A stretch of DNA of 64,000 nt from a virus (lineage: Duplodnaviria; Caudoviricetes). The notes under the pieces are model-generated. The model was not told the origin of the DNA, made no database searches, and saw nothing but the letters and a program-made list of their open reading frames with translations. Numbering within the stretch: position 1 is the first letter of the stretch; every line of letters starts with the position of its first letter. The stretch covers positions 28,532 to 92,531 of the IMG/VR virus record IMGVR_UViG_3300047557_001693, one strand, 5' to 3'. Below, in pieces: positions 4,958-29,500 of the stretch. The position numbers and the translations under genes were made by a program.

Positions 4958-5416
4958 ATGACTAAAATAACTAAAACAAGTAAAAAAGGTGTAGACCTTA
5001 TTAAAAAGTATGAAGGATTTAGTTCTAAACCATACCTCTGTCCTGCTAATGTAGCTACAATTGGTTTTGGTGCAACATTCTATCCTGATGGCACTAAAGT
5101 TAAATTAACTGATGATCCAATAAATGAAGCTGTTGCTGAGGTTATTCTAAAGAAACATTTAGAAAAATTTGAGCAATATGTAGATAGTTATTGTACAGAT
5201 GCTTTAAATCAAAATCAATTTGATGCATTAGTATCTTTTTGTTTTAATCTTGGTCCAGCTAATCTTAAAGCTAGTACATTATTAAAGAAAGTAAATGCTA
5301 ATCCAAATGATCCTACTATAAGAACTGAGTTTATGAAGTGGGTAAAAGCAGGTGGTAAAACTCTTAAAGGTCTAGTTAGAAGAAGAGAAGAAGAAGCAAG
5401 TTTATACTTTAGTTAG
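4958..5416 (+). CDS. Lysozyme, GH24 (T4/P21-like) endolysin
   Basis: 'IKKYEGF..KPYLCPANVATIGFGAT', 'NQNQFDALVSFCFNLG' and 'GLVRRREEEASLY' motifs. Confidence 0.92.
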   Translation: MTKITKTSKKGVDLIKKYEGFSSKPYLCPANVATIGFGATFYPDGTKVKLTDDPINEAVAEVILKKHLEKFEQYVDSYCTDALNQNQFDALVSFCFNLGPANLKASTLLKKVNANPNDPTIRTEFMKWVKAGGKTLKGLVRRREEEASLYFS

Positions 5417-5424
5417 TATATTTG
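5417..5424 (+). promoter_or_regulatory. Bacteroidota sigma70 -7 element (TAnnTTTG)
   Basis: TATATTTG ending 5 nt before the ATG at 5430; possibly a leaderless transcript. Confidence 0.6.
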
Positions 5425-5429
5425 TATAT

Positions 5430-6782
5430 ATGATTAGGTATATTTTAATTATACTATTTATATATACTAAAGTATATTCACAAGGTTCTAATACTTGTAC
5501 AGGTGCTGCAGCTAATCCTGTAACTTTACCATTCTTTACTAATAATCAAACTACTTGTGGTGATTTAAATGATTATACAGGAAGTAATCCATGTATATTT
5601 ACAACCACAGGTAATTATTATGGTGGACAAGATTGGTTATATAGTTTTGTTCCACCTCAAGATGGTTATATAAATATTGTTCTTAATGATGTACAACCAG
5701 CTACAAATACATATCCAACACTTGTATTATCAAGTGCATGTCCTGGAACTGCAGGAGCATGTATGGGATTTTCAATATATAATCCAGCAACTAGTAATGC
5801 ATCTATAGTTGAATATGTACAAGGAGGTCAAACTTACTTTGTTTTAGTAGATACTTATGTTTGGGGAAATATATTTTCAAACTGTTATCAATTTGATTTA
5901 AATATTCAATTTACTCCTGTACCAGTTCAACCTGCTTGTACTAATATTGGATTTAGTAATAACAATTTTACAGGATGGTTTGGTACAACAGGTTTATCTA
6001 CAAGAGCATACATTGGTGCACCAACACCTAATTATGATGCAACAGCATTAGGTATAGTTAATGGAAGACATACTATAATGACAGGTGGTAATGATCCTTG
6101 TGCAGGATTTCCAAGAGTAGATCCATTAGGTGGACCATTTTCTGTTAGATTAGGAGATGCTAATGTTAATTCTCAAGCAGAACAATTAACACAAACATTT
6201 ATGGTAACTAATACTAATAATAGTTTTACATATAGATATGCTGTAGTGTTTGAAGATCCTGGTCATACATCTAATGAACAACCTTTTTTTAGAGCATTAT
6301 TAAGAGATCAGAATGGTAATGTTATTCCATGTTCAGAATTTGTAGTATCTGCTGCTGGTAATTTACCTGGATTTTTTAACTCACCAAACTGTACAGGAGT
6401 TAGATATAAACCTTGGAGTACAGTAAATGTAGACCTAGATAACTATATAGGACAAGCAGTTACAGCAGAATTTACTACAGGAGATTGTACTCAAAGTGCA
6501 CACTATGGTTATGCTTATATAGATGCTGCATGTTCACAATCATTTTTAGATGCATATCCTGATACTATATGTGTAGGAGAAACTATAACATTAACTGCAC
6601 CTAATGGTTATCAATCTTATCAATGGTTACCTACTAATCAAACTACACAAAGTATTAATGTTACACCATCTGTAAGTACAAATTATCAATTAAATTTAGT
6701 ATCATTTAATGGATGTGTTAGAACAGTTCAGTTACCCATTGTAGTTGTACCAGATCCTACTGCTGCTATATACACAAACTAG
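5430..6782 (+). CDS. Secreted SprB-like / T9SS-cargo-like adhesin domain protein lacking a CTD
   Basis: Sec signal ending VYS|Q; Cys-paired domains 'SVRLGD..AEQL..TF.VT...FTYRYAVVFEDPGH...QPFF' and 'TTGDC...HYGYAYIDAAC'; Ig-like repeat 'TICVGETITLTAP.GYQSYQW..T.Q.TQSI.VTP'. These resemble Bacteroidota gliding-motility-associated proteins. Confidence 0.75.
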   Translation: MIRYILIILFIYTKVYSQGSNTCTGAAANPVTLPFFTNNQTTCGDLNDYTGSNPCIFTTTGNYYGGQDWLYSFVPPQDGYINIVLNDVQPATNTYPTLVLSSACPGTAGACMGFSIYNPATSNASIVEYVQGGQTYFVLVDTYVWGNIFSNCYQFDLNIQFTPVPVQPACTNIGFSNNNFTGWFGTTGLSTRAYIGAPTPNYDATALGIVNGRHTIMTGGNDPCAGFPRVDPLGGPFSVRLGDANVNSQAEQLTQTFMVTNTNNSFTYRYAVVFEDPGHTSNEQPFFRALLRDQNGNVIPCSEFVVSAAGNLPGFFNSPNCTGVRYKPWSTVNVDLDNYIGQAVTAEFTTGDCTQSAHYGYAYIDAACSQSFLDAYPDTICVGETITLTAPNGYQSYQWLPTNQTTQSINVTPSVSTNYQLNLVSFNGCVRTVQLPIVVVPDPTAAIYTN

Positions 6783-6808
6783 GTACAATAAGTAGTATAA
6801 TTTTTGCT

Positions 6809-6816
6809 TATATTTG
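6809..6816 (+). promoter_or_regulatory. Bacteroidota -7 promoter element
   Basis: TATATTTG(CA) in the 81-nt intergenic gap upstream of 6864. Confidence 0.6.
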
Positions 6817-6863
6817 CAGTGAAATAAGGTGTTTCATAAGATATACGATGTAATATTTATCTT

Positions 6864-7331
6864 ATGAAATACAAATTTTTAATATCATTTTTTGCAATAT
6901 TACTGTTTTCAGTAGGAAGTTCTCCAGAACCTTTTACAAAAGGTGATGTAAGAATTGTACCTATTATTGAGAATGAAGATCTAGGTCCTAAGTATTGGTA
7001 CATAAGGACTATTAAACTGTATTATAAAGATAAATTACCTCATGGGATAGAACTTAGAAAAGGTCCTCCTTTGGATTCTTATTGTTCTGATGAGACTGAT
7101 TTAACATTTTACTCTAACTCTGATTCATTAACTATCAAGAGTCATAGTAGACTTTCTTGTGAAATATTAGCAATGTATAACTTGTCAGAAAAAGAGTCTG
7201 ATTGGTTAAAATCTCATTTAGTATATAGATTAAAAATATACAATATAGTTACTGAAAATAAGTATTATATCTATGTAGATAATGTATCTTATTTTAAGGA
7301 TTTATTTAACAAATATAATGTAAACTATTAG
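6864..7331 (+). CDS. Exported hypothetical protein
   Basis: N-terminal signal peptide MKYKFLISFFAILLFSVGSS; no recognisable domain. Confidence 0.6.
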   Translation: MKYKFLISFFAILLFSVGSSPEPFTKGDVRIVPIIENEDLGPKYWYIRTIKLYYKDKLPHGIELRKGPPLDSYCSDETDLTFYSNSDSLTIKSHSRLSCEILAMYNLSEKESDWLKSHLVYRLKIYNIVTENKYYIYVDNVSYFKDLFNKYNVNY

Positions 7332-7357
7332 GTATAAATGGTAATCTGTATATTAAG

Positions 7358-7365
7358 TATATTTG
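7358..7365 (+). promoter_or_regulatory. Bacteroidota -7 promoter element
   Basis: TATATTTG 14 nt before the ATG at 7380, supporting 7380 rather than 7338 as the start. Confidence 0.6.
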
Positions 7366-7379
7366 TTAAAAGATTTGTT

Positions 7380-7940
7380 ATGAAAAATTTGTTTTTGTCA
7401 TTATTTTTTATATTGTTAACTATAACAGTATTTGGACAGGTACCAACACCTAATATTGCTGATGGACAAGTAGTATGTCCTAATGCAGTACATTTCTATG
7501 GAGATCAAGTAATTAACCCTACTTCAACATATACATTTAACATTTTACCTCCACAAGCATTTACTGTTGTTGGACAACAAATACAAGTTACTTGGTTAAC
7601 ACCTGGAGTATACACTATGACTATGACAGAAACTAATGCAGCAGGTTGTCAATTTGTAACAGTAGCTAATATAACTGTACAACCTAATGTTATTGCTACA
7701 ATAGACCCTATAGTATTATGTCAAGATGGTGGTAATGTAACTATTACAGGACAAAATCTTGGTACTAATCCTATATTTAATGGACCTGGAGTATCAGGAA
7801 ATACTTTTAACCCTGCAGGATTAGCTCCTGGAACTTATAATATAACTGTTGTTTCTCAGACTGCAAATGGCTGTTCTATTACTGGAGCAGGTACTGCAAC
7901 TGTAGAACCTTTACCTACTGGAATAATATATACTGACTAA
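7380..7940 (+). CDS. Secreted two-Ig/PKD-like domain protein (SprB-repeat-like) lacking a CTD
   Basis: Signal MKNLFLSLFFILLTITVFG|Q; 'VTWLTPGVYTMTMTETNAAGC' and 'GPGVSGNTFNP..LAPGTYNIT....NGCS' repeats; ends 'PLPTGIIYTD'. Confidence 0.75.
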   Translation: MKNLFLSLFFILLTITVFGQVPTPNIADGQVVCPNAVHFYGDQVINPTSTYTFNILPPQAFTVVGQQIQVTWLTPGVYTMTMTETNAAGCQFVTVANITVQPNVIATIDPIVLCQDGGNVTITGQNLGTNPIFNGPGVSGNTFNPAGLAPGTYNITVVSQTANGCSITGAGTATVEPLPTGIIYTD

Positions 7941-8491
7941 TGAAATATACACTACTTACATTATTGATAAGTATGAATCTCATGGCACAAACAACATATG
8001 AATTATGTGATTCATATATTCAGAAGGAAATAAGAGCAAACACTTCAGCACAATCTATAAACTGGAGTGTTTCCCCTTTAATACCTTATCAAGTTAATGA
8101 TGATGTTATGACAATAACTATCAGTGACTTGGGTACATATGTAATTACTGCTACTTTTAGCAATGGTTATTGTTATACTAAAGACTTATTAGTATTACAA
8201 ATCATTGAATGTAAGGAAAGTTTTTTATGGATACCTAATTCATTTACACCTAATGATGATAGAGTTAATGATACATTTGGTGCTTATGGAATTAACATTA
8301 AAGATTTTAAACTTACTATCTGGAATAGATGGGGAGAATTACTTTTTGTAAGTAATGATTTAAACAATAGATGGGATGGTACATACAAAGGTGAAATTTG
8401 CCAAGATGATGTCTATACCTATAAACTTAGTTATAAAGATGTAAACAATAAACAATACACCAAATTTGGTAGAGTAACACTTTTTAAATAA
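7940..8491 (+). CDS. T9SS type B sorting domain protein (gliding motility-associated C-terminal domain, CHU_C)
   Basis: Signal ending LMA|Q; one Ig-like domain, then 'LWIPNSFTPNDDRVNDTF...LTIWNRWGELLF......WDGTYKG...DDVYTYKL.........GRVTLFK', the canonical type B CTD. Confidence 0.9.
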   Translation: MKYTLLTLLISMNLMAQTTYELCDSYIQKEIRANTSAQSINWSVSPLIPYQVNDDVMTITISDLGTYVITATFSNGYCYTKDLLVLQIIECKESFLWIPNSFTPNDDRVNDTFGAYGINIKDFKLTIWNRWGELLFVSNDLNNRWDGTYKGEICQDDVYTYKLSYKDVNNKQYTKFGRVTLFK

Positions 8492-8499
8492 CCTAACTT

Positions 8500-8808
8500 A
8501 TGAATCAACCAATTCTTTTAGCTTTAATTGCACTAGGTTCAGCTGTAGTAACTACAATTGTACCTAGATTATTTAGTAAAAAGAAAGATACAGTAGATAT
8601 GCTTGCTGAAATTCAAGATAAACTATATAGTGAAATAGATAGACTTGAAAAAAAGATTACTATTCTTGAACAAAGAGAACATGAAGCATATCTATTAGAA
8701 GAAAAATTAGTTAAAAGAATAGCAGAATTAGAACAAGAAAATATAAGACAAGCAAATGAAATTCAACAACTTAAAGCAGAACTTGAGAAATATGTCAAAA
8801 ATAGTTAA
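8500..8808 (+). CDS. Membrane-anchored coiled-coil protein (holin/antiholin candidate)
   Basis: N-terminal hydrophobic helix followed by a heptad coiled coil; in the lysis cluster. Confidence 0.5.
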   Translation: MNQPILLALIALGSAVVTTIVPRLFSKKKDTVDMLAEIQDKLYSEIDRLEKKITILEQREHEAYLLEEKLVKRIAELEQENIRQANEIQQLKAELEKYVKNS

Positions 8809-9052
8809 GAACTCTTTCATTGAATCTTTTAAAGGAAACAATGGTAAGATAGATCATAAAAGATTAACTGTATTTGCATTTGTAATAGGATTCTTTATTA
8901 CAACAGGAATTATACTTTATAAAAAAAATCAAATACCTAATTCAGAATTAGTAGAAATAGTATTAATAACAATGACATCTGTTATACTAGGAGGGATGGG
9001 TTTGACTAAAATAAAAACAAAAATAGAAAAACAGACAGAAAATGAAACTTAG
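8792..9052 (+). CDS. Holin candidate (two TM helices)
   Basis: Two hydrophobic segments and a basic C-terminus; overlaps the M15 endolysin start. The ATG at 8792 is preferred over 8756. Confidence 0.6.
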   Translation: MSKIVKNSFIESFKGNNGKIDHKRLTVFAFVIGFFITTGIILYKKNQIPNSELVEIVLITMTSVILGGMGLTKIKTKIEKQTENET

Positions 9053-9554
9053 TAGAAACTTTAGCTTAGATGAGATGTTAAAATCTCAGACAGCAAGTAG
9101 ATGGGGATTTGATGAGCAATTCAATCCTCCTGATGAGGTAATAAACAATTTAACTTTGTTGTGTACAAAAGTACTACAACCTATTAGAGATGCATTAAAA
9201 GCTAGTATTACTGTAACTTCAGGTTATAGATGTCCTAGACTTAATGCTAAAATAGGTGGTGCATATACTATTATTAATGGTAAACCTGTACAAACTTCAC
9301 AGCACTGTTATGGTCAGGCAGCAGATATTAACTTTATTAAAGATGGTAAAGAATTTAATGGTTCTTTAGTATCTGTAATAAAAGATTTATGTGCAGATCC
9401 TGATTTTAAATTTGATCAATGTATATTAGAATTTGGTTCTGATGAGAATCCTTCATGGATTCACATATCATATTCTAATGATAACAATAGAATGCAAGTA
9501 TTAAGAGCATATAAATCTGGTAAAAAAACTTTATACAAACCCTGGAAACTATGA
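9042..9554 (+). CDS. Peptidase M15 (M15_3) endolysin
   Basis: 'KLSRNFSLDEM', 'VTSGYRCPRLN..IGG', 'SQHCYGQAAD' and 'WIHISY' zinc motifs. Confidence 0.9.
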   Translation: MKLSRNFSLDEMLKSQTASRWGFDEQFNPPDEVINNLTLLCTKVLQPIRDALKASITVTSGYRCPRLNAKIGGAYTIINGKPVQTSQHCYGQAADINFIKDGKEFNGSLVSVIKDLCADPDFKFDQCILEFGSDENPSWIHISYSNDNNRMQVLRAYKSGKKTLYKPWKL

Positions 9555-10138
9555 GTAAAAATAAATCTTGGTTTACTATTGAAAGAATAACAATAATTGT
9601 ATTATTAGTTATGTTATTCTTATTACAACAATGTCACAATGCATGTCCTAAAGAACCTTGGGAAGTAACTAAAACAGTTATTAAAACTCACAGAGATACT
9701 ATTACTAAGGTTAAAGTGGATACTATTACAAAGTATGTTACTTTAAAAGTACCTAAACCAACTCCTGATCCTCAAGATACTGTATTAAGTGTATATACTC
9801 AAGAGCATAGTGACAGTAGTTTAGATGCTATATTTATTAGTAAAGTAGATGGTGTATTAGTAAGCTCTGATTTTAAATACAAACTTAAGGTACCTAAAGA
9901 AATATATAGAACCATTACTCAAGTAGATACAATAACTAATACTGTAACTAATATAGTTAAGGTTAATAAGAATGTATTAGCAATGGGTGGTTTAATATTA
10001 GCTAGTCCAACAGCATATGGTTTTGATGCAGGTATGGGTATATCTTTTTATCACAAAAAAGGTTATCTTTACCAGCTGAACTATCTACCACTATCTAGGA
10101 CAGTAGTAGTAGGTTTTTCATACCAATTAAATAGATAA
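9551..10138 (+). CDS. Spanin-like membrane protein
   Basis: N-terminal TM helix ending in QQC, extended 'DTIT' beta-linker and C-terminal amphipathic beta strands; directly after the endolysin. Confidence 0.5.
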   Translation: MSKNKSWFTIERITIIVLLVMLFLLQQCHNACPKEPWEVTKTVIKTHRDTITKVKVDTITKYVTLKVPKPTPDPQDTVLSVYTQEHSDSSLDAIFISKVDGVLVSSDFKYKLKVPKEIYRTITQVDTITNTVTNIVKVNKNVLAMGGLILASPTAYGFDAGMGISFYHKKGYLYQLNYLPLSRTVVVGFSYQLNR

Positions 10139-17410: not shown

Positions 17411-20400
17411 ATGGCAGAAAAAAACTCACTCTGGAAAAACATTAGGAAGAAAGCTGAACAAAACAGAAGGACAGGTGCTAAACCTAAAAAGCCTACTGCT
17501 GAAATGCTTAGGCAAGAAAGAAAAATTAAAGCTCAAAAAGCTAATGGTGGTCCTGTAGGTGATGATGATTTAATGCTTTCAAATATTTATAATAAATATC
17601 CTGCTTTTAGAAATATGGGAAATGTTACATTAAAAGCAGATACTGGATTTACAAAAGAAAACACAGGTATTGGAGATATAGAGTTTTTTGATTCAAAAAC
17701 TAAAGAGATTACTTATCCTAATGGTTACAAAGTTGTTAATCCAAGTAATAATGGATCTGGAATTATATATAATCCAAATACAAATACTGAGCAAAATATA
17801 ATGTTAGATATGTTGCATGGGATGCCTTCAGATCCAGTATATAATAAAATAAAATCTGAGCTTGGAGATGCTTATCTTAATTCTGAATTTGCAGAAGATT
17901 TTTATAATGATAGTAAATATTTTAAAAATAAAGTAGGTGAAGAAAAATGGAAAGAATGGTATGGTAATGATAAAGGATTTTTTGATAAAAGTTATTTAGA
18001 TGGTGTTATAAGAAACTTAATGTTTGAAGGAACTGCAGAAGATTTTAAAAAAAACAATTATTGGGAAGATGCTCGTAAAGAATATTTTAAAGATAAGGAT
18101 ATAAAAACTAAATACACTCAGTTAGAAAATTATCTTAAAACAGGACAAGGGTATGTTTTACCAGAAGTAGAAATATTTGGTGATAAAATAAAAGCTAATG
18201 GAGGACCTACCAAATCATTAGTACAACCTCCAGTATTATTAGATGATAATATTATTTATCCTACTGATAATCCTTATATGCCAGGAGTAAATAAAGATAT
18301 TTTAGATTCTGACTATGATAGTTACATGAGATGGAGAGAAGGTTTTATAAATAATCAAGGAATGACTCCTGAAGAATATTATCAAACTTATCCTAGTAGA
18401 CAAGAATATGATAGACAAAATTTTGATCCTGCAAATTTTTATAAAGGTGTTTCATTAGCTCAAGGTGGACCAACAGATGGTAAAGATGATCCTTTTAAAT
18501 CTACTTTAAATCAAGGAGTTACTGTTGCTAAACCTGCTCAAGATTGGGTAAGTTCTTGGGTTCAACATCCTGAATTTGCTAATAGATTAAATGAAAATTT
18601 TCGAGACCATGCTTCAAAATTAAGTAAAAAAATTTATGGAAATAAAGAAGCTAAACAAAGAGCAGCTGAGTCTAATTTAAAAAGTATAAATAAAGCAATA
18701 CCTGGTGTTATAAGTGATATCTACGATACTAAATTTTTATATAACACAAATCCAGAAAATAATTCACAATTACTTGATTTATATAGAGCTAGTTATAATG
18801 ATCCTGAGTATGATAAATTTTTTAAAAAAACCATGAGTAAAAATCCTCAAGGATTTACTGATGAACAAGGTAGAATTGTAATTACAAATGCAGCTAATGA
18901 TCAATATGGTCCAGAATCAGTATCTGTTCATGAGTTAATGCATAAAACAGGTTTATATGATGATGAAACTTTTGATAGAACATTTAAAGGTAAATTTTTA
19001 ACACCTTCTCAAGATAGATTAGATAAAGATTTTAATAGAGGTGAAATGTATCCTTTTTTAATGCAAATGAGATTTGATAATAATTTTCAACCAGGTGAAA
19101 TAATTACTCCAGAAAGATTAAAACAAATTAAAGAATCAGGATATAAAAATCATTTATTTAAATATTATACTGATGATGAAATATCTAAATACTTAAATAC
19201 ACTTGCTAGTAATCAAACACAAACACCTATGCAATATGCTGCTCAAGGTGGATATATGTATGATAGTGGTGGAAATACTAACCCTGTTACACTTTATAAA
19301 AAAGCACAATATGATCCTAATACAGGTAAGATATTAGAATATGCAGGTACTCAAGGTAATGAATACTATGTGACACCTAATACACCTCAAGGTATTGATT
19401 TTGAAAGAAGACTTTCTGAAATTGAAGTTGTTGAAGATACTGGTTTATATAATCCAGATATTGTTGGTCCAACTGCACCAAAGTTTATTCCATCTGAAAC
19501 TGGTTGGATACAAAATCCTAATTGGAGAGGAGGAGATGCTTTAGAATATGTACCAATTGAATCTGCATTATTACCTGCTAGTTTGCCTATTAAAGCAAGT
19601 ACAAATTTAGGTAAAGTAGGTAAGTTTGCAGCAGAAGCTTTAAACCCTTTAGGAGGATTTAGAAATATATCTAAAAAACTAGTTAAATCACCTAATACTT
19701 TTAAATCAGAAATAGATTGGGGTAAATGGAATCCAGATACACCAAACTATCCAGAACTTATTAATGAGTACAATGCAATAGAAGAATCTACTAAAAAAGC
19801 AGGTACCTGGATGAAAAATCCTGATGGTTCTCCTTTTCAAGGAACTCCTGAACAATTTATACAACAGCGAAGTAGTTGGTTTAAAAAATATGTTGAAGAT
19901 GCAGGAGGAAATTATGATGAAGTCATTAATGATCCTTATTTTTATCATGGTTCAAAAACTAAAGGAATAAAAGAGTTTCATACTCCTCAACATGCTGATT
20001 ATACAAAAGCAACAGGAGATACTCCTGAAACTGGTATATTTATAACTAAACGTAAAAGTTTAGCTGATATATATGCTTCAGAAAAATTATTCGATGATTT
20101 AACTCCAAAAATTGGTAAAAAAACAGGAGAAACTTATCAACTTTATGCTCCTGCAAATTATGCTAATCCTGGATTAAAAAATCCAAATAATTCAAATAAA
20201 TTAATAAATACAGGAACTTTAAAATTAAAAGATGTAGATTATTTGGAAAGTTTAGGTTATTCTGGTTTAAAACAATCATCTATGTTTGAAGGAAGTGAAA
20301 GAGCTATATTTAATCCAAATTTACTTAAATCAGCAGTAGGTAATGTAGGATTTTTTGATATAACTAATCCTAATATATATAAAGTAGTAGTTCCGCCAGC

Positions 20401-23400
20401 AGCAATAATAGGAACAGGAGTAGTAGGAGCAGAAGCAATGCAAGGCTCTCAACCTGAACAACAATCAAAAGGTGGTCACATAAATCCATATATGTACTAT
20501 GCAGGTGGACCAATGCAATCAACTAATAACAAATATTCAAAAAATAATATTATGAAATATAAACGAGGAGGTGGTGTTGGAGGTTTCTTCAAAGACTATG
20601 GTAATTATTTAATAAACGCTAACCTTGCTCCTTTTGAAGCTTTAACAGGTAAAGATTTTTTTGACCCTGAATATAATAATAAGATTTTTCAAGTTGGAGA
20701 TAAAATTACTGAAACAGCATCTAACATAGGTATGGGTATGTTAGGTTCTATGTATTTAACACCTCAAGGTTATCAAGCAGCTAGACAAGGTATAAATTCT
20801 ATTTCTGATGAATTTATAGATACTCCACAACAACAGCAGCAACAATATCCTCAACAACAATATTCTCCTAATGTAAATCAAGGATTATCATTTGCAGCTA
20901 CTGGTGGTAATATAAATAATAATTCATTAAATTTGCAAAACTCTATGAGAGGTAAATACAACAGTTATAAAAGAAAGTATTCCAGAGGTGGTACTTTTCA
21001 AAAATATGGAATAAATGAAATTCCTGAATCTGCAGGTTATCATCATCAAAATGCTTATGGTGGAGTACCTATTGGACCTAATGCTATGGCTGAAGGTGGA
21101 GAATTTGTACTTGACAATAATTATGTTGTATCAGATCAAGTAGATGGTATGAACACTCAAACTGATGAGTTTGGTAGAACTATGGCTCAAAATCTTAAAA
21201 GAGATTTGAGTAAATATACATTAAGAGATTTAGATTCTAAAAATAGAGATCAAGAAAGAAGACCTTACAGTGATATTTCTAGCCTTACTATTGAGCAAAT
21301 TAAACAAAATGCTATAATAGAAACTGAAAAGGCAAGAGCTGAAGCACAAGCTAAAGAAGAACAAAGACAAGCTATGGTTAATGGTGCTTTACAATATGCA
21401 GCTGCAGGTGGTAAGTTAAATAAAGATCTTGAAAAGATTTTAAGTAATGATATCCAAAGATATGTTGAAGCAGATAATTATTATGCTTATGGTGGATATC
21501 TTCCTAAAGATAAAGGGTTTAATATGCCTAACTCCTATGCTAAAGGTGGTAGTATTCATATTAAGAAATCTAAAAGAGGTACATTTACTGCTGCAGCTAA
21601 AAAGAGAGGTAAATCTGTACAAGAGTTTGCAAGACAAGTATTAGCTAATAAAGAAAAATATTCTGCAGCTATGGTTAAAAAAGCTAACTTTGCTAGAAAT
21701 GCTTCTAAATGGAAACATGCAGATGGTGGATATACTTTTGGAAATGAAACTCCTGAAATAATTTATCCACAACAACCAATGTTATACAATATAGCTCCAA
21801 CAGATGTTGAACAACCATATGTTATAAATAATAATCAACTTCTCAATAGTATGCCAAAAAGAAATCCTGTAATTTCTGATGAAGGTTTTATATATGATGA
21901 TAGTGAAACAAATGTTAAACCAACTACATCATTAGATTATAATATTGATAAAAATATAATTGATCCTAATAATAAAAATTTAAATGCAAATATAAATTTC
22001 TTAAGAGAAAGTTCAAAAGGTAAAATAGGAGTTACTGGTAGTTATGAAAATTCTACAACTTTAACACCACAAGAGTTAGAAGAAATTAGAACACAACAAG
22101 CAATAAATCAACAAAAATTAAATTTAGGTTTAACTGGTAGTAGAACATTTAATACAAAAAATGATGGTAAAATAATAGTTGGAGGAAGTGTAAATTCTAC
22201 TATGCAACCAGGTTCTGCACCAGTTTATAATTATCAAGGTACTGTTGGTTATAGTACACCTAAAGGAAATACATTTGATGCTAATATTTCAAGAGATGCA
22301 GCTACTGGAGCTACTACTGGAAAAGTTAGTGGTAAAATTGTATTTGGAAAAGCAAAAGGTGGTCCAATGGTATCTAATGTTGCACAACCATTTCAAGTAG
22401 CTGCACAAAACAGAGGTGGAATGATGATGAATTATGCTATGGGTGGTAATATGTATGCTATGGGTGGTCCTGGTGATGAATTAGATCCTGAACAACTTAA
22501 AGCACAAGGATTTGTAGAATATGAAGAATATTTTTACAATCCTACTACTGGTCAATATATTGATAAAGTTTCTATAGACACTAGACGTGAAAAACAACTT
22601 CAGGAACGTATAGATAGATTTATGGAACAAGATGTTAAATTTGATAATTCAGCTATAAAACCTATGGCTAGTTTATTAAGTAATACAGGAATTGAAAATT
22701 CACCTATTAATACAGGTATAATGACATATGATGCAACTCCTCAAGCTACAAATCCACTTGGAGGAATTAAAAAACCTGGAATGGAAAATATGATTGGTTC
22801 TAATACTTTTGAACCAGGAACTACTTATAGTATAGCTAATACAAATCCTTATGGAAGTTATTATGATTTAAGATATTCAGATCCAAATTCTTTTGACTTT
22901 TCTTTAGATAGATTTCCTATTTTAGATAGAGAGGGTAACATTCAAACTACTCCTGAAGATTTTGCAAGATTACAAAGTGTAGCAGGTACAGATATTGAAC
23001 AATCTAGATTAAATAGATTTACTGAACCTTACAATCAAGTAATGTCTACTAGAGATAAAGTTAGAAGAGCTTATCAAAATAAATCTCCTTACTTAGATAA
23101 TATGGTAGATGAGCCTGCTAAATCTAATAAGTCAAATAATTATTTTAGAAATCTAAATACACCTAATGTAATAGATGCTCAAGGTAATACAAGTAGTATT
23201 CTTAGTAGAAGAAATAAAAATCAATCTACACCAGTAGAACCTATTGAAAGAATGCAATCTAGAAATCTTCAGCAATTACCTACAGATAATACACCATTAT
23301 CAATAACAAATAACTATCCAGAGTCTAGTTATAGACCAGCTACATTAACAGAAGAAGAACAAAACATGTTAGATAGAATGTCTAATACAGCAGGCTTTAT

Positions 23401-24601
23401 ACCATCTGATGTAATGTCTGGAAAATTAGGAACTTCTACTGCACCTTTCCCTTATGAAGAAGGACCTGTTAATATTTCTATTCCTAGAGAAGCAAATCCT
23501 GGAGAAAACATTAGATTTATACTACCAGAAGGATCTGATATAATTGAAGATTTACCAGGAACTGTTTCAACTCAAACAAAAGTTTCTGATGCAGCTATAG
23601 GTTTAGATAATAATTTATCAGATCTTCCATTAAATTTTACAGAAAAATCTGCTAAAAAATATGGTTTAAATCCTAATGTAAATAATATTAATATTGTACC
23701 TAAACAACCTAATGATGGTCTTGGAATACCAGATTATATATCAATGGTAGCACAAGCTGCAGGCCCATTAATTCAATCATACTATGGATTAAAAGGAGGT
23801 GATGATGTTAACTATGAAAGAATTAAAGCTGATAAAATAGATCCTTATAAAGCAATACAAATAATAAGAGATTATTTTACAACAGGTGATAATACTACAA
23901 GTTATAACTTAAGACAAAATGCTCCTACATCAGGAAGTTTTATGTCTAATATGAGATCAAAATTACAAAATCTTAAAGATAAAGCAGCTCAAATTGCAAA
24001 TATGCAGTATCAAGCTGATGTAGCTAATACTCAAACGCAAAATCAAGTTAATGCACAAAATGCTCAAATAGCAATGCAGGAGCAAATTGATAGATTACAA
24101 GAGAAAGATGCTGCTAGAACTAATGTAACAGAAGGTTTTAGTGGATTAGGTTCATCTGCTGCTAATATGATTAGAGATTATAGAATTAATCAATTAAATA
24201 AAACTATTGCTGAAAATATTGGTACTAGTAATACTCAATTAGTTAGAGGTGCAGATGGAAAATATAGACTTGTAATGAAACCTAATAGTGGAAATGATTG
24301 GACACCAACACCTTACAATGATCCTTATAAACAAAATGCACCTGCAGCAAATACAGGTGCTAATGCACCATCTGCTAATGTTACTCCTGCTGCTGCACCA
24401 GCTGCTAATACAACACCAAAATCAGTTAATTTTGACGATAATATTAAAGATAAAACAGCAGGTGATGCATTTAGAAAATGGGTTAATGAAAAACATCCTG
24501 ACTATGCTAAAGAAAAAGATTTATGGGTAAGTGGAGAATATAATAATAGTTATATTAAGAAAGCTTGGGATGAATATGGTAAAGAATATTTAGGACAATA
24601 A
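17411..24601 (+). CDS. Virion cargo (ejection) protein 1, multi-module polyprotein-like
   Basis: First gene after the muzzle; ~18 x-[AS]-x-GG-like motifs separate modules, including HELMH zincin, YHGS ART-like and a basic domain; N/Q-rich helical C-terminal core. Confidence 0.7.
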   Translation: MAEKNSLWKNIRKKAEQNRRTGAKPKKPTAEMLRQERKIKAQKANGGPVGDDDLMLSNIYNKYPAFRNMGNVTLKADTGFTKENTGIGDIEFFDSKTKEITYPNGYKVVNPSNNGSGIIYNPNTNTEQNIMLDMLHGMPSDPVYNKIKSELGDAYLNSEFAEDFYNDSKYFKNKVGEEKWKEWYGNDKGFFDKSYLDGVIRNLMFEGTAEDFKKNNYWEDARKEYFKDKDIKTKYTQLENYLKTGQGYVLPEVEIFGDKIKANGGPTKSLVQPPVLLDDNIIYPTDNPYMPGVNKDILDSDYDSYMRWREGFINNQGMTPEEYYQTYPSRQEYDRQNFDPANFYKGVSLAQGGPTDGKDDPFKSTLNQGVTVAKPAQDWVSSWVQHPEFANRLNENFRDHASKLSKKIYGNKEAKQRAAESNLKSINKAIPGVISDIYDTKFLYNTNPENNSQLLDLYRASYNDPEYDKFFKKTMSKNPQGFTDEQGRIVITNAANDQYGPESVSVHELMHKTGLYDDETFDRTFKGKFLTPSQDRLDKDFNRGEMYPFLMQMRFDNNFQPGEIITPERLKQIKESGYKNHLFKYYTDDEISKYLNTLASNQTQTPMQYAAQGGYMYDSGGNTNPVTLYKKAQYDPNTGKILEYAGTQGNEYYVTPNTPQGIDFERRLSEIEVVEDTGLYNPDIVGPTAPKFIPSETGWIQNPNWRGGDALEYVPIESALLPASLPIKASTNLGKVGKFAAEALNPLGGFRNISKKLVKSPNTFKSEIDWGKWNPDTPNYPELINEYNAIEESTKKAGTWMKNPDGSPFQGTPEQFIQQRSSWFKKYVEDAGGNYDEVINDPYFYHGSKTKGIKEFHTPQHADYTKATGDTPETGIFITKRKSLADIYASEKLFDDLTPKIGKKTGETYQLYAPANYANPGLKNPNNSNKLINTGTLKLKDVDYLESLGYSGLKQSSMFEGSERAIFNPNLLKSAVGNVGFFDITNPNIYKVVVPPAAIIGTGVVGAEAMQGSQPEQQSKGGHINPYMYYAGGPMQSTNNKYSKNNIMKYKRGGGVGGFFKDYGNYLINANLAPFEALTGKDFFDPEYNNKIFQVGDKITETASNIGMGMLGSMYLTPQGYQAARQGINSISDEFIDTPQQQQQQYPQQQYSPNVNQGLSFAATGGNINNNSLNLQNSMRGKYNSYKRKYSRGGTFQKYGINEIPESAGYHHQNAYGGVPIGPNAMAEGGEFVLDNNYVVSDQVDGMNTQTDEFGRTMAQNLKRDLSKYTLRDLDSKNRDQERRPYSDISSLTIEQIKQNAIIETEKARAEAQAKEEQRQAMVNGALQYAAAGGKLNKDLEKILSNDIQRYVEADNYYAYGGYLPKDKGFNMPNSYAKGGSIHIKKSKRGTFTAAAKKRGKSVQEFARQVLANKEKYSAAMVKKANFARNASKWKHADGGYTFGNETPEIIYPQQPMLYNIAPTDVEQPYVINNNQLLNSMPKRNPVISDEGFIYDDSETNVKPTTSLDYNIDKNIIDPNNKNLNANINFLRESSKGKIGVTGSYENSTTLTPQELEEIRTQQAINQQKLNLGLTGSRTFNTKNDGKIIVGGSVNSTMQPGSAPVYNYQGTVGYSTPKGNTFDANISRDAATGATTGKVSGKIVFGKAKGGPMVSNVAQPFQVAAQNRGGMMMNYAMGGNMYAMGGPGDELDPEQLKAQGFVEYEEYFYNPTTGQYIDKVSIDTRREKQLQERIDRFMEQDVKFDNSAIKPMASLLSNTGIENSPINTGIMTYDATPQATNPLGGIKKPGMENMIGSNTFEPGTTYSIANTNPYGSYYDLRYSDPNSFDFSLDRFPILDREGNIQTTPEDFARLQSVAGTDIEQSRLNRFTEPYNQVMSTRDKVRRAYQNKSPYLDNMVDEPAKSNKSNNYFRNLNTPNVIDAQGNTSSILSRRNKNQSTPVEPIERMQSRNLQQLPTDNTPLSITNNYPESSYRPATLTEEEQNMLDRMSNTAGFIPSDVMSGKLGTSTAPFPYEEGPVNISIPREANPGENIRFILPEGSDIIEDLPGTVSTQTKVSDAAIGLDNNLSDLPLNFTEKSAKKYGLNPNVNNINIVPKQPNDGLGIPDYISMVAQAAGPLIQSYYGLKGGDDVNYERIKADKIDPYKAIQIIRDYFTTGDNTTSYNLRQNAPTSGSFMSNMRSKLQNLKDKAAQIANMQYQADVANTQTQNQVNAQNAQIAMQEQIDRLQEKDAARTNVTEGFSGLGSSAANMIRDYRINQLNKTIAENIGTSNTQLVRGADGKYRLVMKPNSGNDWTPTPYNDPYKQNAPAANTGANAPSANVTPAAAPAANTTPKSVNFDDNIKDKTAGDAFRKWVNEKHPDYAKEKDLWVSGEYNNSYIKKAWDEYGKEYLGQ

Positions 24602-26516: not shown

Positions 26517-29500
26517 ATGCCAGAAGAAAAATTAAACTCCAGTAAGTTAATAGGTATGATGAAAAATTCAGCACCATCTAATCCTGTGATGATTGCTGAT
26601 GAATCAAAATATGATTTAGGTTCTGGATTCACTATTGATCCAAATCCACAATATGCAACTGAAAATATAGAAGATCTTTATGAATCAAGAGCACAAATGC
26701 AGGGTGCTGCTGATAAATGGGGTAATGGTATAGTTAAATTAATAGGTAAAACAGGTACAGCAGTAGTTGGTGGTGTTGGTATGATTGGTTCAGTAGCATA
26801 TAATGTTGCAGGTCAATTAGAAGATTTATGGACAGGTGTAGATGATACATCATTTAAACAAATATATGATAATGATTTTTACAATGCTTTAAATAAAGCT
26901 AATGAAGCAATGGATGAAGATTTTAAACACTATGTTACTAGAGAAGCTCAGGAATATAGTGCTTTTGAAAAAATGGGTACTGCTAATTTTTGGTCTAATG
27001 ACTTCTTACAAGGTGCTTCATTTGTTGTAGGTGCAGTATTAACTGAAGGTGCTTTTGCAGCAATGGCTAGTGTTGGTAGATTAAATAATCTTACAAAAGC
27101 AATTAGAGCTGTAGATAAAGCTATAGGTGCTACAGATAATGTAGTTGGTAGTGTAGGTAGTATGATGAGTAAATCAGCAATTAGACAAACTGGTTATGAA
27201 GCAGCTACATTAGGTAGACAAATGATTACTAGTGCAGGTTATGAATCTGCAGTAGAAGCAAATTCATTTGTTAAAGATGCTAAAGAAAAATGGTTATTAG
27301 ACTTTACTGAAAAAAATAGAAGAGAACCTACTGCTGAAGAAACAGCTGCTGCAATGGATGAAATATATAAAGTAGGTAATAGTGTATTTGGTATTAACTT
27401 AATTGTTACAGGACTTACACAAGCTAAAAGTATACCTGGAATGTTTTCACCTAAATTAGGTAAGATGTTAGGTAGTACTTATAATCCTGAAAAAAAGTTT
27501 TTAAAAGAGATAGTTGAAACTGCAACTTTAACTGATAAGCAATTAATTAGAGCAGCTAAAAACCTTGGAAAAACTGTAGATGAAGTTAAGGCTATGCCTA
27601 ATATTAGTAAATATGCAATATTAACTGGAGGTGAAAAATTTGCAAGAGGTGCTGTTAGAGGTTTAGAAGGTGCTGTGTTTGAAGGTGGTCAAGAAGGTTT
27701 ACAAAAAGCAATTAGTTATGCAGGAGAAGATTATCTTCAAGATAGATTTGATCCTTCAGAATCTGAAGATATTATTAAATCAGGAATTGCAGGTTTGACA
27801 AAAGCTTTTGGTAATAATGCGGAAAGTTGGACTGAAATATTTATTGGTGCTATATTAGGTTCTGCAGGTGGACCTGGACCAAGTGGTTCTAGATTAAAAG
27901 GATGGCAAGGAGGAATTATTGAAGCTTTTAGAGATCCTGCTAATTCTCCTGAATTAAATAGTTTTATTGATTTAGCTAATAATTATGCAGCAAATAGTGA
28001 AGGTATAATGAATAATTATATTAAGCACTTTAATCTAATTACTAATTCTCAATTAAAGAAAGATAATTTTGCTGAACAAAATGATGTTTATAATTATAAA
28101 TCAGAAGAAGCTAAACAGATGTTTGATTATTTAAACATGATGTCTAAGATGGACAGGCTTTCAGAAGTTGAAGAAAAATATCTTGCAGAATTAAATAAAC
28201 TTACTAAAGAACAATTTCAAGAAAGATATGGTTATGAAAATTTAACTGAAAAAGATTTCTTAAAAAGAAAAACAGATATAAATCTTAATATAAAAGAACA
28301 AATTGAATCTGTTAAAAATTCTAGAGATAAAGCTTCTGGTATTTATAGAGGTGGTGATGTTGATGTATTAGATCAAATTGCATATACTGTATATGCTAAT
28401 AAAAATTTAAGTGATAGAAAAAAACAAATGCTATCAGAAATATCTAATACTTTAAATAAAGCTGTATCTCAAAGAACAGCTGAAATTTCAAAGATGGCTA
28501 ATTTTAAAGAAATTAGAGATCTTCAATATTCAATTAATCAGTTAAAAAACTCAAGAGTTGAACCACAAAGTGAACAAGCTCAAGTTGATCAGATAGTAAA
28601 GTTAGAAGCTGAATTAGATAAGCTTCTTGAAAAAACTTATAATAAAGAATTAAAGAATACTGCTCCTGATGCAAAACTTGCTAAAGATTTTCAAAAGTTT
28701 AAAGCAGATGTATTGTTTCACATTGAAGATTTTAATTCTATTTCAGAAGATATAGAAAATGTAGATCCTATAGATAAAGCTGATATACAAAAGAAGTTAG
28801 ATGATATTGGTAAAATTCTTAATCAAGAGCAAGAATATGCAAAACTTTTTAATAGATTACTAACAAGAGAAGGTATTCAAAGCTTAGAAGAATCTGTTAA
28901 TAAATTAAAAGATGATATTGTAAAAGAACATATTGAATTACAAGATTATTTAATGTTTGAAAAGTTTAAAAAGGAAGATCCTAATAAAAAACTTTTTGAA
29001 GCACAGGAACAAATTCTTAAACAGAAAAGAAAAAAAGTAAACTTTGATGTTGCTGTAAGTGCACAAGTCCAAAATACTATTGGACAGATTAATGACATGA
29101 AAACATTAATCAATGGATTATCTCTTGAAGATAATATGAAAGAAAGCTTAATTGTATCTTTTGAAAAGTTACATGAAATTCTTGCAAAATATGAAACTAT
29201 TCCTACAGAAGAAGGTAAAAAGACTTTTTTACAAAATGAAATAAAACCAATGTTTGAAGATTTTAAGAACAGACTTAAGTTTCTTGAAATCTATAGCCCA
29301 GAATCTTATAATAAAGTAATAGGTTCTGAAATATACACTAAATTAAATAACCTTATTAAAAGTTTAGGTGCAACTACTCCAGCAAATTCATCTGCAACAT
29401 TATCTCCTGTTAACTCAGATCCTTCTAGATTACAAACTATGGAGTGGTTACCTAGTCCTGAAGTAGATGCTATTAAAAATACAGTTACTGATATAGATGA

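What the first reader, a model, noticed from the sequence alone, without database searches (positions are those of the whole stretch)
6741..7940. Shared C-terminal tail P-x-P-T-x-x-I-Y-T-[ND]* on the two CTD-less adhesin subunits
Seen: the 450-aa protein ends VVVPDPTAAIYTN* (6741-6782) and the 186-aa protein ends TVEPLPTGIIYTD* (7899-7940). Length, register and stop position match although the proteins otherwise differ. Conserved extreme termini argue against random truncation. Inference: this is either a donor beta-strand that completes the next subunit's Ig fold (strand-exchange polymerisation, with the CTD protein as secretion pilot or anchor) or an unrecognised short sorting signal.
Basis: partly seen in the sequence, partly recalled or inferred. 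Interest (0 to 1): 0.8.

Follow-up and report, generated by a model that had tools for sequence, protein, structure and literature searches.

The report
Phage docking tail for secretion carrier
Two secreted phage proteins end in the same short tail, which most likely is a missing beta-strand that plugs into a small neighbouring carrier protein so that they can ride out of the host cell through its type IX secretion system.

Summary
Both ORFs end as described. The same end, P-x-P, 2-5 residues, [ILV]-x-[HT]-[ND]-stop, closes 76 of 96 CTD-less homologs of the 450-aa protein and 0 of 24 homologs with a T9SS CTD.

The window is phage DNA. In bacterial genomes the homologs are 729-2668-aa proteins fused to a CHU_C domain, and none has the tail (0 of 66). 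In viral contigs they are short, tail-ended and unfused.

In a second census, 23 of 28 small signal-peptide + Ig + CHU_C "carrier" genes have a tail protein within 4.5 kb, against 0 of 33 large CHU_C genes.

The tail aligns with strand A of the next PKD/Ig domain of the bacterial homologs. The carrier's Ig domain lacks exactly that strand. A complex prediction puts the tail into that Ig domain: score 0.66, best control 0.01.

Best reading: a split Ig domain acts as a docking tag, and cargo hitch-hikes on a type B CTD carrier. All of this is in silico. The donor-strand idea is supported, polymerisation is not. I found no published precedent.

The parts
5430..6782 (+). Cargo 1: 450-aa secreted protein. 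It has a signal peptide, an N-terminal region of about 350 aa that matches no Pfam family, one Ig-like domain and the tail.
   Evidence: 261 homologs were found. The closest bacterial ones (56-67% identity over all 450 aa) are the N-terminal part of 1640-1958-aa CHU_C proteins.
6750..6779 (+). Tail of cargo 1, PDPTAAIYTN. The stop follows at 6780-6782.
   Evidence: It aligns with P-x-P plus strand A of the next PKD domain in bacterial homologs.
6864..7331 (+). 155-aa protein with a signal peptide and no tail. It is a conserved member of the cassette in the close phage group. Its role is unknown.
   Evidence: no family match. Homologs sit in the same cassette in L094, L098 and L099.
7380..7940 (+). 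Cargo 2: 186-aa secreted protein with a signal peptide, two Ig/PKD-like domains and the tail. Its stop overlaps the carrier's start codon (TAATG).
   Evidence: AF2 model: mean pLDDT 91.6; the last strand is 166-176; 177-186 is not assigned as a strand.
7908..7937 (+). Tail of cargo 2, PLPTGIIYTD. The stop follows at 7938-7940.
   Evidence: In the predicted complex residues 176-186 form the interface, and I183 makes the best-defined contacts.
7940..8491 (+). Carrier: 183-aa protein with a signal peptide (residues 1-17, inferred), an Ig-like domain without strand A (about 18-91, nt 7991-8212) and a T9SS type B CTD (CHU_C, residues 98-174, nt 8231-8461).
   Evidence: PF13585 E 1.3e-16; TIGR04131 E 2.1e-14. 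AF2 pLDDT 89.6, with Ig strands 18-22, 27-32, 39-45, 50-53, 56-61, 65-74 and 79-90. Alignments.
4958..5416 (+). Context only: phage lysozyme immediately upstream of the cassette.
   Evidence: PF00959, E 1.6e-40. A lysozyme-like 151/152-aa ORF sits just upstream of the cassette in L098 and L099, and about 730 bases upstream of it in L128.

Best explanation
The tail is the detached first beta-strand (strand A) of an Ig/PKD-like domain. The rest of that domain (strands A' to G) is the N-terminal domain of the small carrier encoded next door.

Proposed course of events:
1. All three proteins are exported to the periplasm by their own signal peptides.
2. Signal-peptide cleavage leaves the carrier's Ig domain with an open edge.
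3. The cargo's C-terminal strand, with its conserved Ile in the core and the terminal [HT][ND]-COOH next to the carrier's new N-terminus, inserts there and completes the fold.
4. The carrier's type B CTD (CHU_C) is then read by the host's type IX secretion system. CTD-less cargo is thus carried across the outer membrane and probably held on the cell surface.

One carrier gene serves two or three different cargo genes. Phages apparently made this by splitting host multi-domain T9SS adhesins at a domain boundary.

Shown: the motif, its distribution, its homology to strand A, the gene linkage and the shortened carrier N-terminus. Predicted: the binding mode. Inferred: signal-peptide cleavage, periplasmic assembly, co-secretion and surface display.
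For: 1. Alternative C-termini. Of the 120 listed homologs of the 450-aa protein, 24 carry PF13585 or PF18962 and 0 of these end in the tail. 96 carry neither and 76 end in the strict tail. Of the other 20, 11 have close variants such as IYKN, IYEN, IIFN and YSDQN, and 9 look truncated or different.

2. The tail is kept whatever precedes it: one, two or three Ig/PKD domains, in proteins of 294, 381 and 455 aa. It also ends an unrelated family of about 200 aa.

3. Split versus fused.
- Bacterial loci: 66 homolog ORFs, 57 of them also matching the carrier at their C-end (729-2668 aa), 0 with the tail.
- Viral loci: 47 homolog ORFs, 9 fused and 38 unfused. Of the unfused, 34 have the strict tail and 4 the variants YSDQN or NSDN.

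4. Linkage, carrier-centred census. 23 of 28 distinct small carriers have a strict-tail signal-peptide protein within 4.5 kb. Of the other five, four have variant tails and one lies at a contig edge. 0 of 33 CHU_C proteins of at least 400 aa have such a neighbour (Fisher p 2.6e-12, not corrected for relatedness). Gene order varies, with the carrier before or after the cargo, so read-through fusion is excluded. The stop of the 186-like gene overlaps the carrier's start in the window and at least ten loci.

5. Homology to strand A.
- The closest bacterial homologs read through the tail position as P-x-P-Q-A-S-F-T-A-T..C, which is the start of their next PKD domain.
- In 1354 internal linkers of 150 giant repeat proteins, the fourth residue after P-x-P is I, F or L in 64%, as in the tail. 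Only 34 of the 1354 match the full tail pattern, and 0 of the 150 proteins end in it.

6. Carrier anatomy. Across 15 carriers the predicted mature N-terminus lies 4-9 residues before the first Cys, against 12 in complete domains. The AF2 model (pLDDT 89.6) starts with A' (18-22) and has no strand A. Domain 2 of the 186-aa protein has both A (105-108) and A' (111-114).

7. Complex prediction.
- ipSAE was 0.66, 0.64 and 0.68. The best of 3 controls was 0.01.
- That mark was reached by 58 of 80 solved complexes and by 2 of 110 mismatched pairs. These counts hold only roughly, because my own alignments were used.
- Partner pLDDT was 86, and the runs agree in at least 98% of contacts.
- The interface is partner residues 112, 114-116 and 176-186 against carrier residues 18, 29-38, 57, 69, 71, 73-75, 77-80, 82-84 and 86. 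All of these lie in the Ig domain and none in CHU_C.
- Contact with carrier residue 18, the first mature residue, fits a chain break at the A/A' junction.

8. Tails within one genome resemble each other: IYTN/IYTD, ISHN/ISHD, YSDQN/NSDN, IFH/IYKQ.
Against: - Nothing here is experimental.
- The controls were unrelated proteins, not a tail-less partner. A structure model may rebuild a tandem Ig pair from any such pieces.
- Only cargo 2 was modelled. The tail of cargo 1 was not.
- In the N-domain-centred set, 13 of 35 viral loci with a tail protein had no small CHU_C ORF within about 6 kb. Records of 94.8, 71.5, 23.1 and 25.7 kb had no CHU_C match at all. They are 7-32% complete, so a carrier may lie elsewhere, as it does in the complete 294-kb record G006.
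- In L110 and L111 the adjacent CHU_C ORF is 111 aa and has no Ig domain.
- There are two or three cargos per carrier, and the stoichiometry is unexplained.
- In the AF2 monomer the last six residues have pLDDT about 87. They are not modelled as disordered and may pack on their own domain. I could not inspect coordinates.
- Some tails lack the final N/D: ITH, IFH, IYKQ, ITIQ.
- Tail-carrier covariation rests on two or three clades only and was not tested statistically.
- My five literature searches found no precedent for T9SS transport of a non-covalent complex.
Confidence: 0.6

Rival explanations
1. Heteropolymer by strand exchange. Tails insert into the first Ig domain of another tail protein, for example cargo 1 into cargo 2 and cargo 2 into the carrier. 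This would build a short fibre anchored by the CHU_C protein.
For: - There are two or three tail proteins per carrier.
- In the AF2 monomer, residues 21-29 of the 186-aa protein, which precede the first strand of domain 1, are not assigned as a strand.
- The docking of cargo 2 on the carrier predicted is compatible with being the last link of such a chain.
Against: - The 186-like proteins keep a full-length segment of 8-12 residues before the first Cys that resembles an internal linker plus strand A (PTPNIADGQVVC). Only the carriers are shortened to 4-9 residues.
- The N-terminal region of the 450-aa family is not an Ig domain.
Confidence: 0.12
2. Autonomous short sorting or retention signal. 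The tail is read directly by a host factor, such as a T9SS shuttle, an outer-membrane protein or a C-terminal processing enzyme. The neighbouring carrier only works in the same pathway.
For: - 13 of 35 tail loci have no carrier nearby, and four fragmentary records (23-95 kb) have none at all.
- The extreme C-terminal position and the conserved last two residues resemble C-terminal recognition motifs in general (my own knowledge, not tested here).
Against: - No NCBIfam or Pfam model of a C-terminal sorting signal matches.
- No candidate processing enzyme is conserved in the cassettes.
- The motif is homologous to a structural strand.
- It is predicted to fit the carrier's Ig domain.
- Linkage to small carriers is strong: 23 of 28 against 0 of 33.
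Confidence: 0.12
3. Secretion blocker. The cargo-carrier complex forms as proposed, but it jams or occupies the host T9SS or its PorP/SprF-type shuttles instead of being displayed. The phage would thereby shut down gliding or surface receptors, for example to exclude other phages.
For: - It rests on the same binding evidence as the main explanation.
- One paper in the search listing (PMC9804748, title and abstract start only) links gliding-motility mutations to phage resistance in Flavobacterium.
- The cassette lies beside lysis genes.
Against: - There is no direct evidence for it.
- The cargo N-domains are diverse and homologous to ordinary secreted adhesin parts, which fits display better than plugging.
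Confidence: 0.08
4. Functionless remnant. The tail is only what was left of an inter-domain linker when host genes were truncated.
For: The tail aligns with the linker plus strand A of bacterial homologs.
Against: - The end point and the last four residues are conserved across proteins of about 40% identity or less, in three unrelated architectures.
- Only 34 of 1354 internal linkers match the pattern.
- I183 is 95% and D186 88% conserved, against a mean of 64%.
Confidence: 0.03

Closest known systems
Type V pili of Bacteroidota (FimA/Mfa1 family), strand-exchange assembly
   Same: The phylum is the same. A C-terminal donor strand fills a groove left open at the N-terminal edge of a beta-sandwich after an N-terminal segment is removed. 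The mechanism is recalled from the literature. PMC4789730 and related papers were seen only as titles and abstract starts.
   Different: - Type V pilins are lipoproteins, activated by Arg-specific cleavage of an N-terminal strand, and they polymerise.
- Here the signal peptides have no lipobox Cys and the groove would be exposed by signal-peptide cleavage alone.
- The fold is a small Ig/PKD domain.
- The result would be a 1:1 docking onto a secretion carrier.
- There is no sequence relationship to pilin families in Pfam or NCBIfam.
Chaperone-usher pili, donor-strand complementation
   Same: An incomplete Ig-like fold is completed in trans by a strand from another subunit.
   Different: In those pili the missing strand is the C-terminal G strand and the donor is an N-terminal extension, with a periplasmic chaperone and an usher (recalled). 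Here the missing strand is the N-terminal A strand and the donor is the extreme C-terminus. No chaperone or usher genes are present.
T9SS type B CTD (CHU_C, TIGR04131) substrates with PorP/SprF-type shuttles
   Same: The carrier has a bona fide type B CTD. According to the abstract of PMC12618676 and the title and abstract start of PMC9143113, such CTDs need PorP/SprF-like shuttles and anchor proteins at the surface.
   Different: All described substrates carry the CTD covalently. Here the passenger and the CTD are separate gene products. No PorP/SprF gene was found in the phage contig, so a host shuttle would be needed.
Hitch-hiker (piggyback) export, as in the Tat pathway
   Same: A signal-less partner is exported bound to a signal-bearing one. 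The concept appears in the abstract start of PMC4273604 in the listing.
   Different: The membrane, the machine and the signal all differ. My searches found no report of this for T9SS.
Phage-encoded T9SS cargo ('Cryophage', PMC7468147)
   Same: That phage carries genes with T9SS sorting domains that are presumed to hijack the host system (passages read).
   Different: Those are type A CTDs fused to their enzymes. No split arrangement or C-terminal tail is described there.

Membership tests
T9SS type B CTD substrates (CHU_C PF13585 / TIGR04131) | C-terminal CHU_C domain scoring above the curated cut-off | tested here: met
   Carrier 7940-8491: PF13585 60.9 bits (cut-off 27); TIGR04131 53.4 bits (cut-off 35).
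T9SS type B CTD substrates (CHU_C PF13585 / TIGR04131) | The same feature, asked of the two tail proteins | tested here: not met
   The 450-aa and 186-aa proteins have no CHU_C or Por_Secre_tail match at E up to 0.1 in Pfam or up to 1 in NCBIfam.
T9SS type B CTD substrates | A cognate PorP/SprF-like shuttle gene nearby | tested here: not met
   No PF11751 match in the 92.5-kb contig at E up to 0.1. The contig is estimated 64% complete, and a host shuttle could serve instead.
T9SS-dependent secretion | Export that depends on the T9SS core genes | not testable with these tools
   This needs a host and T9SS mutants.
Type V pilins (FimA/Mfa1) | Lipoprotein signal peptide with a lipobox Cys, plus an Arg-protease site that releases the N-terminal strand | tested here: not met
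   Read from the sequences. The signal peptides end ...VYSQ/GS...VFGQ/VP and ...LMAQ/TT, with no Cys at the predicted cleavage site. No pilin family match.
Donor-strand complementation (mechanism, not a sequence family) | An acceptor Ig-like domain that lacks one strand | tested here: met
   The carrier AF2 model has A', B, C, C', E, F and G but no strand A. Its N-terminus is shortened in 15 of 15 aligned carriers.
Donor-strand complementation (mechanism, not a sequence family) | The donor strand occupies the vacant position in the complex | tested here: inconclusive
   This is a prediction only. ipSAE 0.66 against a best control of 0.01. Tail residues 176-186 contact carrier residues 29-38 (the second Ig strand) and 77-86 (the last). 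Coordinates were not inspected and there is no experiment.
PKD domain (PF00801 / PF18911) | A score at or above the gathering cut-off | tested here: inconclusive
   186-aa protein: PF00801 23.5 bits, exactly at the 23.5 cut-off; PF18911 20.8 bits, below the cut-off of 27. Many homologs carry both annotations.
Known C-terminal sorting signals in NCBIfam (for example the PEP-CTERM type) | A match to a curated signal model at the C-terminus | tested here: not met
   No such match for the window's two tail proteins, nor for the four tail-ended homologs P0047, P0058, P0066 and P0103, at E up to 1.

The most novel reading that the evidence does not exclude
Phages of Bacteroidota have evolved a natural tag-and-catcher system. 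A roughly 10-residue C-terminal strand on several unrelated secreted cargo proteins snaps into a strand-deficient Ig domain on one small type B CTD carrier. CTD-less proteins would then be secreted and displayed through the host T9SS as non-covalent complexes. This would be the first in-trans secretion signal for T9SS and a phage-specific way to remodel the infected cell's surface. Because the cassette lies beside a lysozyme gene in two phage lineages (crAss-sized and jumbo), it may even take part in the outer-membrane step of lysis.
Probability: 0.4. Interest if true: 0.85.

Novelty: new variant of a known kind. Interest (0 to 1): 0.75.

Why it matters
- T9SS substrates are defined by a covalently attached C-terminal domain. 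A secretion signal supplied in trans by a separate carrier would change how T9SS cargo is predicted, because the tail proteins are invisible to CTD-based searches.
- It would show that the translocon can pass non-covalent complexes.
- It would reveal a widespread but unannotated phage module.
- It offers a minimal natural tag and acceptor pair for surface display in Bacteroidota.
- It gives a concrete, testable entry point into what Bacteroidota phages do to the host envelope late in infection.

Tried and rejected
- Isopeptide (SpyTag-like) bond through the terminal N/D: rejected. The carrier Ig domain has no conserved Lys or catalytic Glu/Asp. Its conserved residues are C23, W42, G65, C78 and C91.
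- Read-through or frameshift fusion of cargo and carrier: rejected. The carrier has its own signal peptide and lies upstream of the cargo in several loci.
- The search of protein representatives with the 186-aa family profile: the best 150 of 32,022 hits were all giant multi-repeat proteins. It found no further small tail proteins, and was useful only for internal-linker statistics.
- GenBank phages: tblastn with the 450-aa protein found nothing. With the carrier it found three uncultured records at 29-37% identity. No cultured phage is therefore available as a model.
- blastn of the cassette against phages: one 415-base match at 66% identity in the lysozyme gene only.
- PHROGs: no family for any of the four cassette proteins.
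- Foldseek of the carrier model against the PDB: only generic tandem Ig/FN3 matches with TM 0.45 or less. No solved complex of this kind was seen.
- ESM Atlas on the N-region of the 450-aa protein: the best named hit was Choice_anch_L / GBD_T9SS_assoc at 0.81, below the level the tool treats as more than a lead.
- Tail-carrier covariation table: suggestive only, with too few independent clades.
- Complex prediction gave no 'no support' or 'no verdict' result. Its single job passed.
Full report
**What is there.** The window is part of a 92.5-kb viral record. Virion structural genes flank the region. Downstream of a phage lysozyme (4958-5416, PF00959) lie four ORFs, each beginning with a signal-peptide-like N-terminus:
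- a 450-aa protein (5430-6782);
- a 155-aa protein (6864-7331);
- a 186-aa protein (7380-7940);
- a 183-aa protein (7940-8491).

Only the last has a T9SS signal: CHU_C, PF13585 at E 1.3e-16 and TIGR04131 at E 2.1e-14. Of the contig's 108 ORFs of at least 60 aa, no other ends in the broad pattern [ILVFM]x[HTSY][ND].

**The tail is a conserved terminal element.** Among the 120 listed homologs of the 450-aa protein (261 found):
- 24 are annotated with a T9SS CTD, and none ends in [ILVFM]x[HT][ND];
- 96 are not so annotated, and 76 end that way;
- of the remaining 20, 11 have near variants and 9 look truncated or different.

The tail persists although the proteins have one, two or three Ig/PKD domains and share only about 40% identity. 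In the 186-aa family, 34 of 41 listed homologs end IYTD. A third, unrelated family of signal-peptide proteins of about 200 aa in large phages ends GPISHN, GAISHN or GPITHN. The background is low: 1 of 718 other ORFs in bacterial flanks.

**Phage-specific split of a bacterial architecture.** I searched one genome per prokaryote species with the N-domain alignment and examined the best 80 of 586 confirmed matches.
- All 80 lie in contigs labelled mostly as Bacteroidota MAGs.
- Of 66 homolog ORFs, 57 also match the window's carrier at their C-end. They are 729-2668 aa long, with a median of 1268. None has the tail.

In IMG/VR there were 47 homolog ORFs. Nine are fused forms. The other 38 are short and unfused; 34 have the strict tail and 4 the variants YSDQN or NSDN. 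The closest bacterial homologs are 56-67% identical over the whole 450 aa. They continue through the tail position into their next PKD domain as P-Y-P-Q-A-S-F-T-A-T-T-P-T-C. The phage gene therefore looks like the N-terminal part of a host adhesin, cut just after strand A of the next domain.

**Linkage to a special small carrier.** In the N-domain-centred viral set, 22 of 35 loci with tail proteins also hold a small CHU_C ORF within about 6 kb. In two of these it is only a 111-aa ORF without an Ig domain. It lies on either side of the cargo. A second, carrier-centred census took the best 80 of 213 confirmed loci.
- It gave 28 distinct small carriers (signal peptide + Ig + CHU_C, at most 230 aa). 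23 of them have a strict-tail, signal-peptide protein within 4.5 kb.
- Of the other five, one is at a contig edge and four have neighbours with variant ends: YSDQN/NSDN, ITH, IFH/IYKQ and ITIQ.
- None of 33 CHU_C proteins of at least 400 aa has such a neighbour (Fisher p 2.6e-12, uncorrected for relatedness).

The stop of the 186-like gene overlaps the carrier's ATG in the window and at least ten loci. This suggests coupled translation.

**Counter-examples.** Thirteen loci have no nearby carrier. Eleven of them form one clade, ending VSVFTN. Records of 94.8, 71.5, 23.1 and 25.7 kb have no CHU_C match. These records are estimated 7-32% complete. In the complete 294-kb record G006 the 383-aa tail protein lies about 30 kb from a lysozyme + 184-aa tail protein + 191-aa carrier cassette. 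Adjacency is therefore not obligatory.

**Why strand A.** I examined 1354 internal linkers from 150 giant repeat proteins of the same domain type.
- After P-x-P the consensus is x-V-[ST]-[IFL]-[TS]-G-L, with Cys at +11 or +12.
- The hydrophobic fourth residue corresponds to the invariant Ile of the tail.
- Only 34 of the 1354 linkers match the whole tail pattern, so the terminal [HT][ND] is special to the tails.

Carriers begin their mature chain 4-9 residues before the first Cys, for example TTYELC and QQTVELC. The 186-like proteins and internal domains have about 12. The AF2 models agree:
- The carrier (pLDDT 89.6) has Ig strands 18-22, 27-32, 39-45, 50-53, 56-61, 65-74 and 79-90, so it starts with A'.
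- Domain 2 of the 186-aa protein (pLDDT 91.6) has A at 105-108 and A' at 111-114. Its residues 177-186 are not a strand in the monomer.

**Predicted complex.** I submitted the carrier (residues 18-183, alignment A4) with the last domain plus tail of the 186-aa protein (residues 100-186, alignment A5).
- The verdict was that the model supports binding.
- Scores were 0.66, 0.64 and 0.68. The best of three controls was 0.01.
- That mark was reached by 58 of 80 solved complexes and 2 of 110 mismatched pairs. The counts hold only roughly, because my own alignments were used.
- Partner pLDDT was 86, and the runs agree in at least 98% of contacts.
- The interface is tail residues 176-186 (plus 112 and 114-116) against carrier residues 18, 29-38, 57, 69, 71, 73-75, 77-80, 82-84 and 86. 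All lie in the Ig domain and none in CHU_C.
- The conserved I183 makes the best-defined contacts.

This supports, but does not show, insertion of the tail beside strand B with its C-terminus next to the carrier's new N-terminus. The controls were unrelated proteins, not a tail-less partner, and the model could be rebuilding a tandem Ig pair.

**Mechanism proposed.**
1. All parts are exported by Sec.
2. The A-less Ig domain of the carrier captures the C-terminal strand of one cargo in the periplasm.
3. The type B CTD takes the complex through the host T9SS. By analogy with type B substrates (abstract of PMC12618676; title and abstract start of PMC9143113), it then holds the complex on a PorP/SprF-type shuttle at the surface.

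The phage contig has no PorP/SprF gene, so a host shuttle would be used. Steps 1 to 3 are inferred.

**Rivals.**
- A heteropolymer by strand exchange, which is not excluded.
- A direct host-read signal.
- A T9SS-blocking complex.
- A functionless remnant, which the conservation contradicts.

**Comparison with what is known.** The proposal works like donor-strand complementation, and most like the type V pili of the same phylum. It also resembles hitch-hiker export. It is a member of neither pilus family: there is no lipobox, no Arg-cleavage logic, no chaperone or usher, and no family match. Phage-encoded T9SS cargo has been reported with fused type A CTDs (PMC7468147, passages read). Five full-text searches found no split cargo-carrier arrangement, no in-trans CTD and no such C-terminal motif.

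**Verdict.**
- Confidence is about 0.6 that the tail docks cargo onto the carrier's Ig domain for T9SS-dependent export.
- The rest is spread over the rivals.
- Novelty: a new variant of known principles, in a new setting.

Noticed in passing
window 4958-10138; L098 and L099 5014-9625; L128 1834-4152: The cargo-carrier cassette sits beside a phage lysozyme. In the window group it is followed by two small ORFs with hydrophobic N-terminal stretches (8500-8808, 8756-9052), an M15 peptidase (9042-9554) and a 195-aa ORF with a hydrophobic N-terminal stretch. The lysozyme next to the cassette in the 294-kb record G006 looks similar to the window's on reading, which suggests a shared lysis-linked module. 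A role in envelope disruption is possible but untested.
   Followed up: partly
window 6864-7331: A 155-aa signal-peptide protein with no family match is conserved inside the cassette in L094, L098 and L099. It has no tail and no CTD. A chaperone-like or regulatory role is conceivable.
   Followed up: partly
L110 and L111 5415-5750; L120 728-1063; L173 6229-6630: Very small ORFs of 111-133 aa consist of a signal peptide plus CHU_C only, with no Ig domain. Some lie next to tail proteins. Their role is unexplained.
   Followed up: no
L081 and L083; L141; L146; L174; L183: Variant tails change together within a genome: YSDQN with NSDN, and IFH with IYKQ. L146 (ITH) and L183 (ITIQ) each show one variant tail. 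This is compatible with co-evolution with one shared acceptor, but too few lineages were seen to test it.
   Followed up: partly
L121 3375-3974; L137, L140, L143, L144, L148, L149 (about 193-215-aa ORFs): A third family of signal-peptide proteins, with a fold unlike the two-Ig proteins, carries the same tail (GPISHN, GAISHN, GPITHN). It sits in the cassette of large phages.
   Followed up: partly
L100, L101, L103, L104, L107, L108, L122-L124: Nine viral-contig ORFs are fused forms of 877-1347 aa (N-domain to CHU_C), like the bacterial ones. Both the split and the fused architecture therefore occur in contigs classed as viral.
   Followed up: no
window 17411-24601, 26517-39758, 39786-45473: Giant ORFs of 2396, 4413 and 1895 aa lie on the + strand. 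They were not analysed.
   Followed up: no
window 5430-6540 (residues 1 to about 370 of the 450-aa protein): The N-terminal region has no Pfam, NCBIfam or PHROG match, but it is very common at the N-terminus of Bacteroidota CHU_C proteins (586 confirmed matches in species genomes). The ESM Atlas gives only a lead, at 0.81, to Choice_anch_L / GBD_T9SS_assoc.
   Followed up: partly
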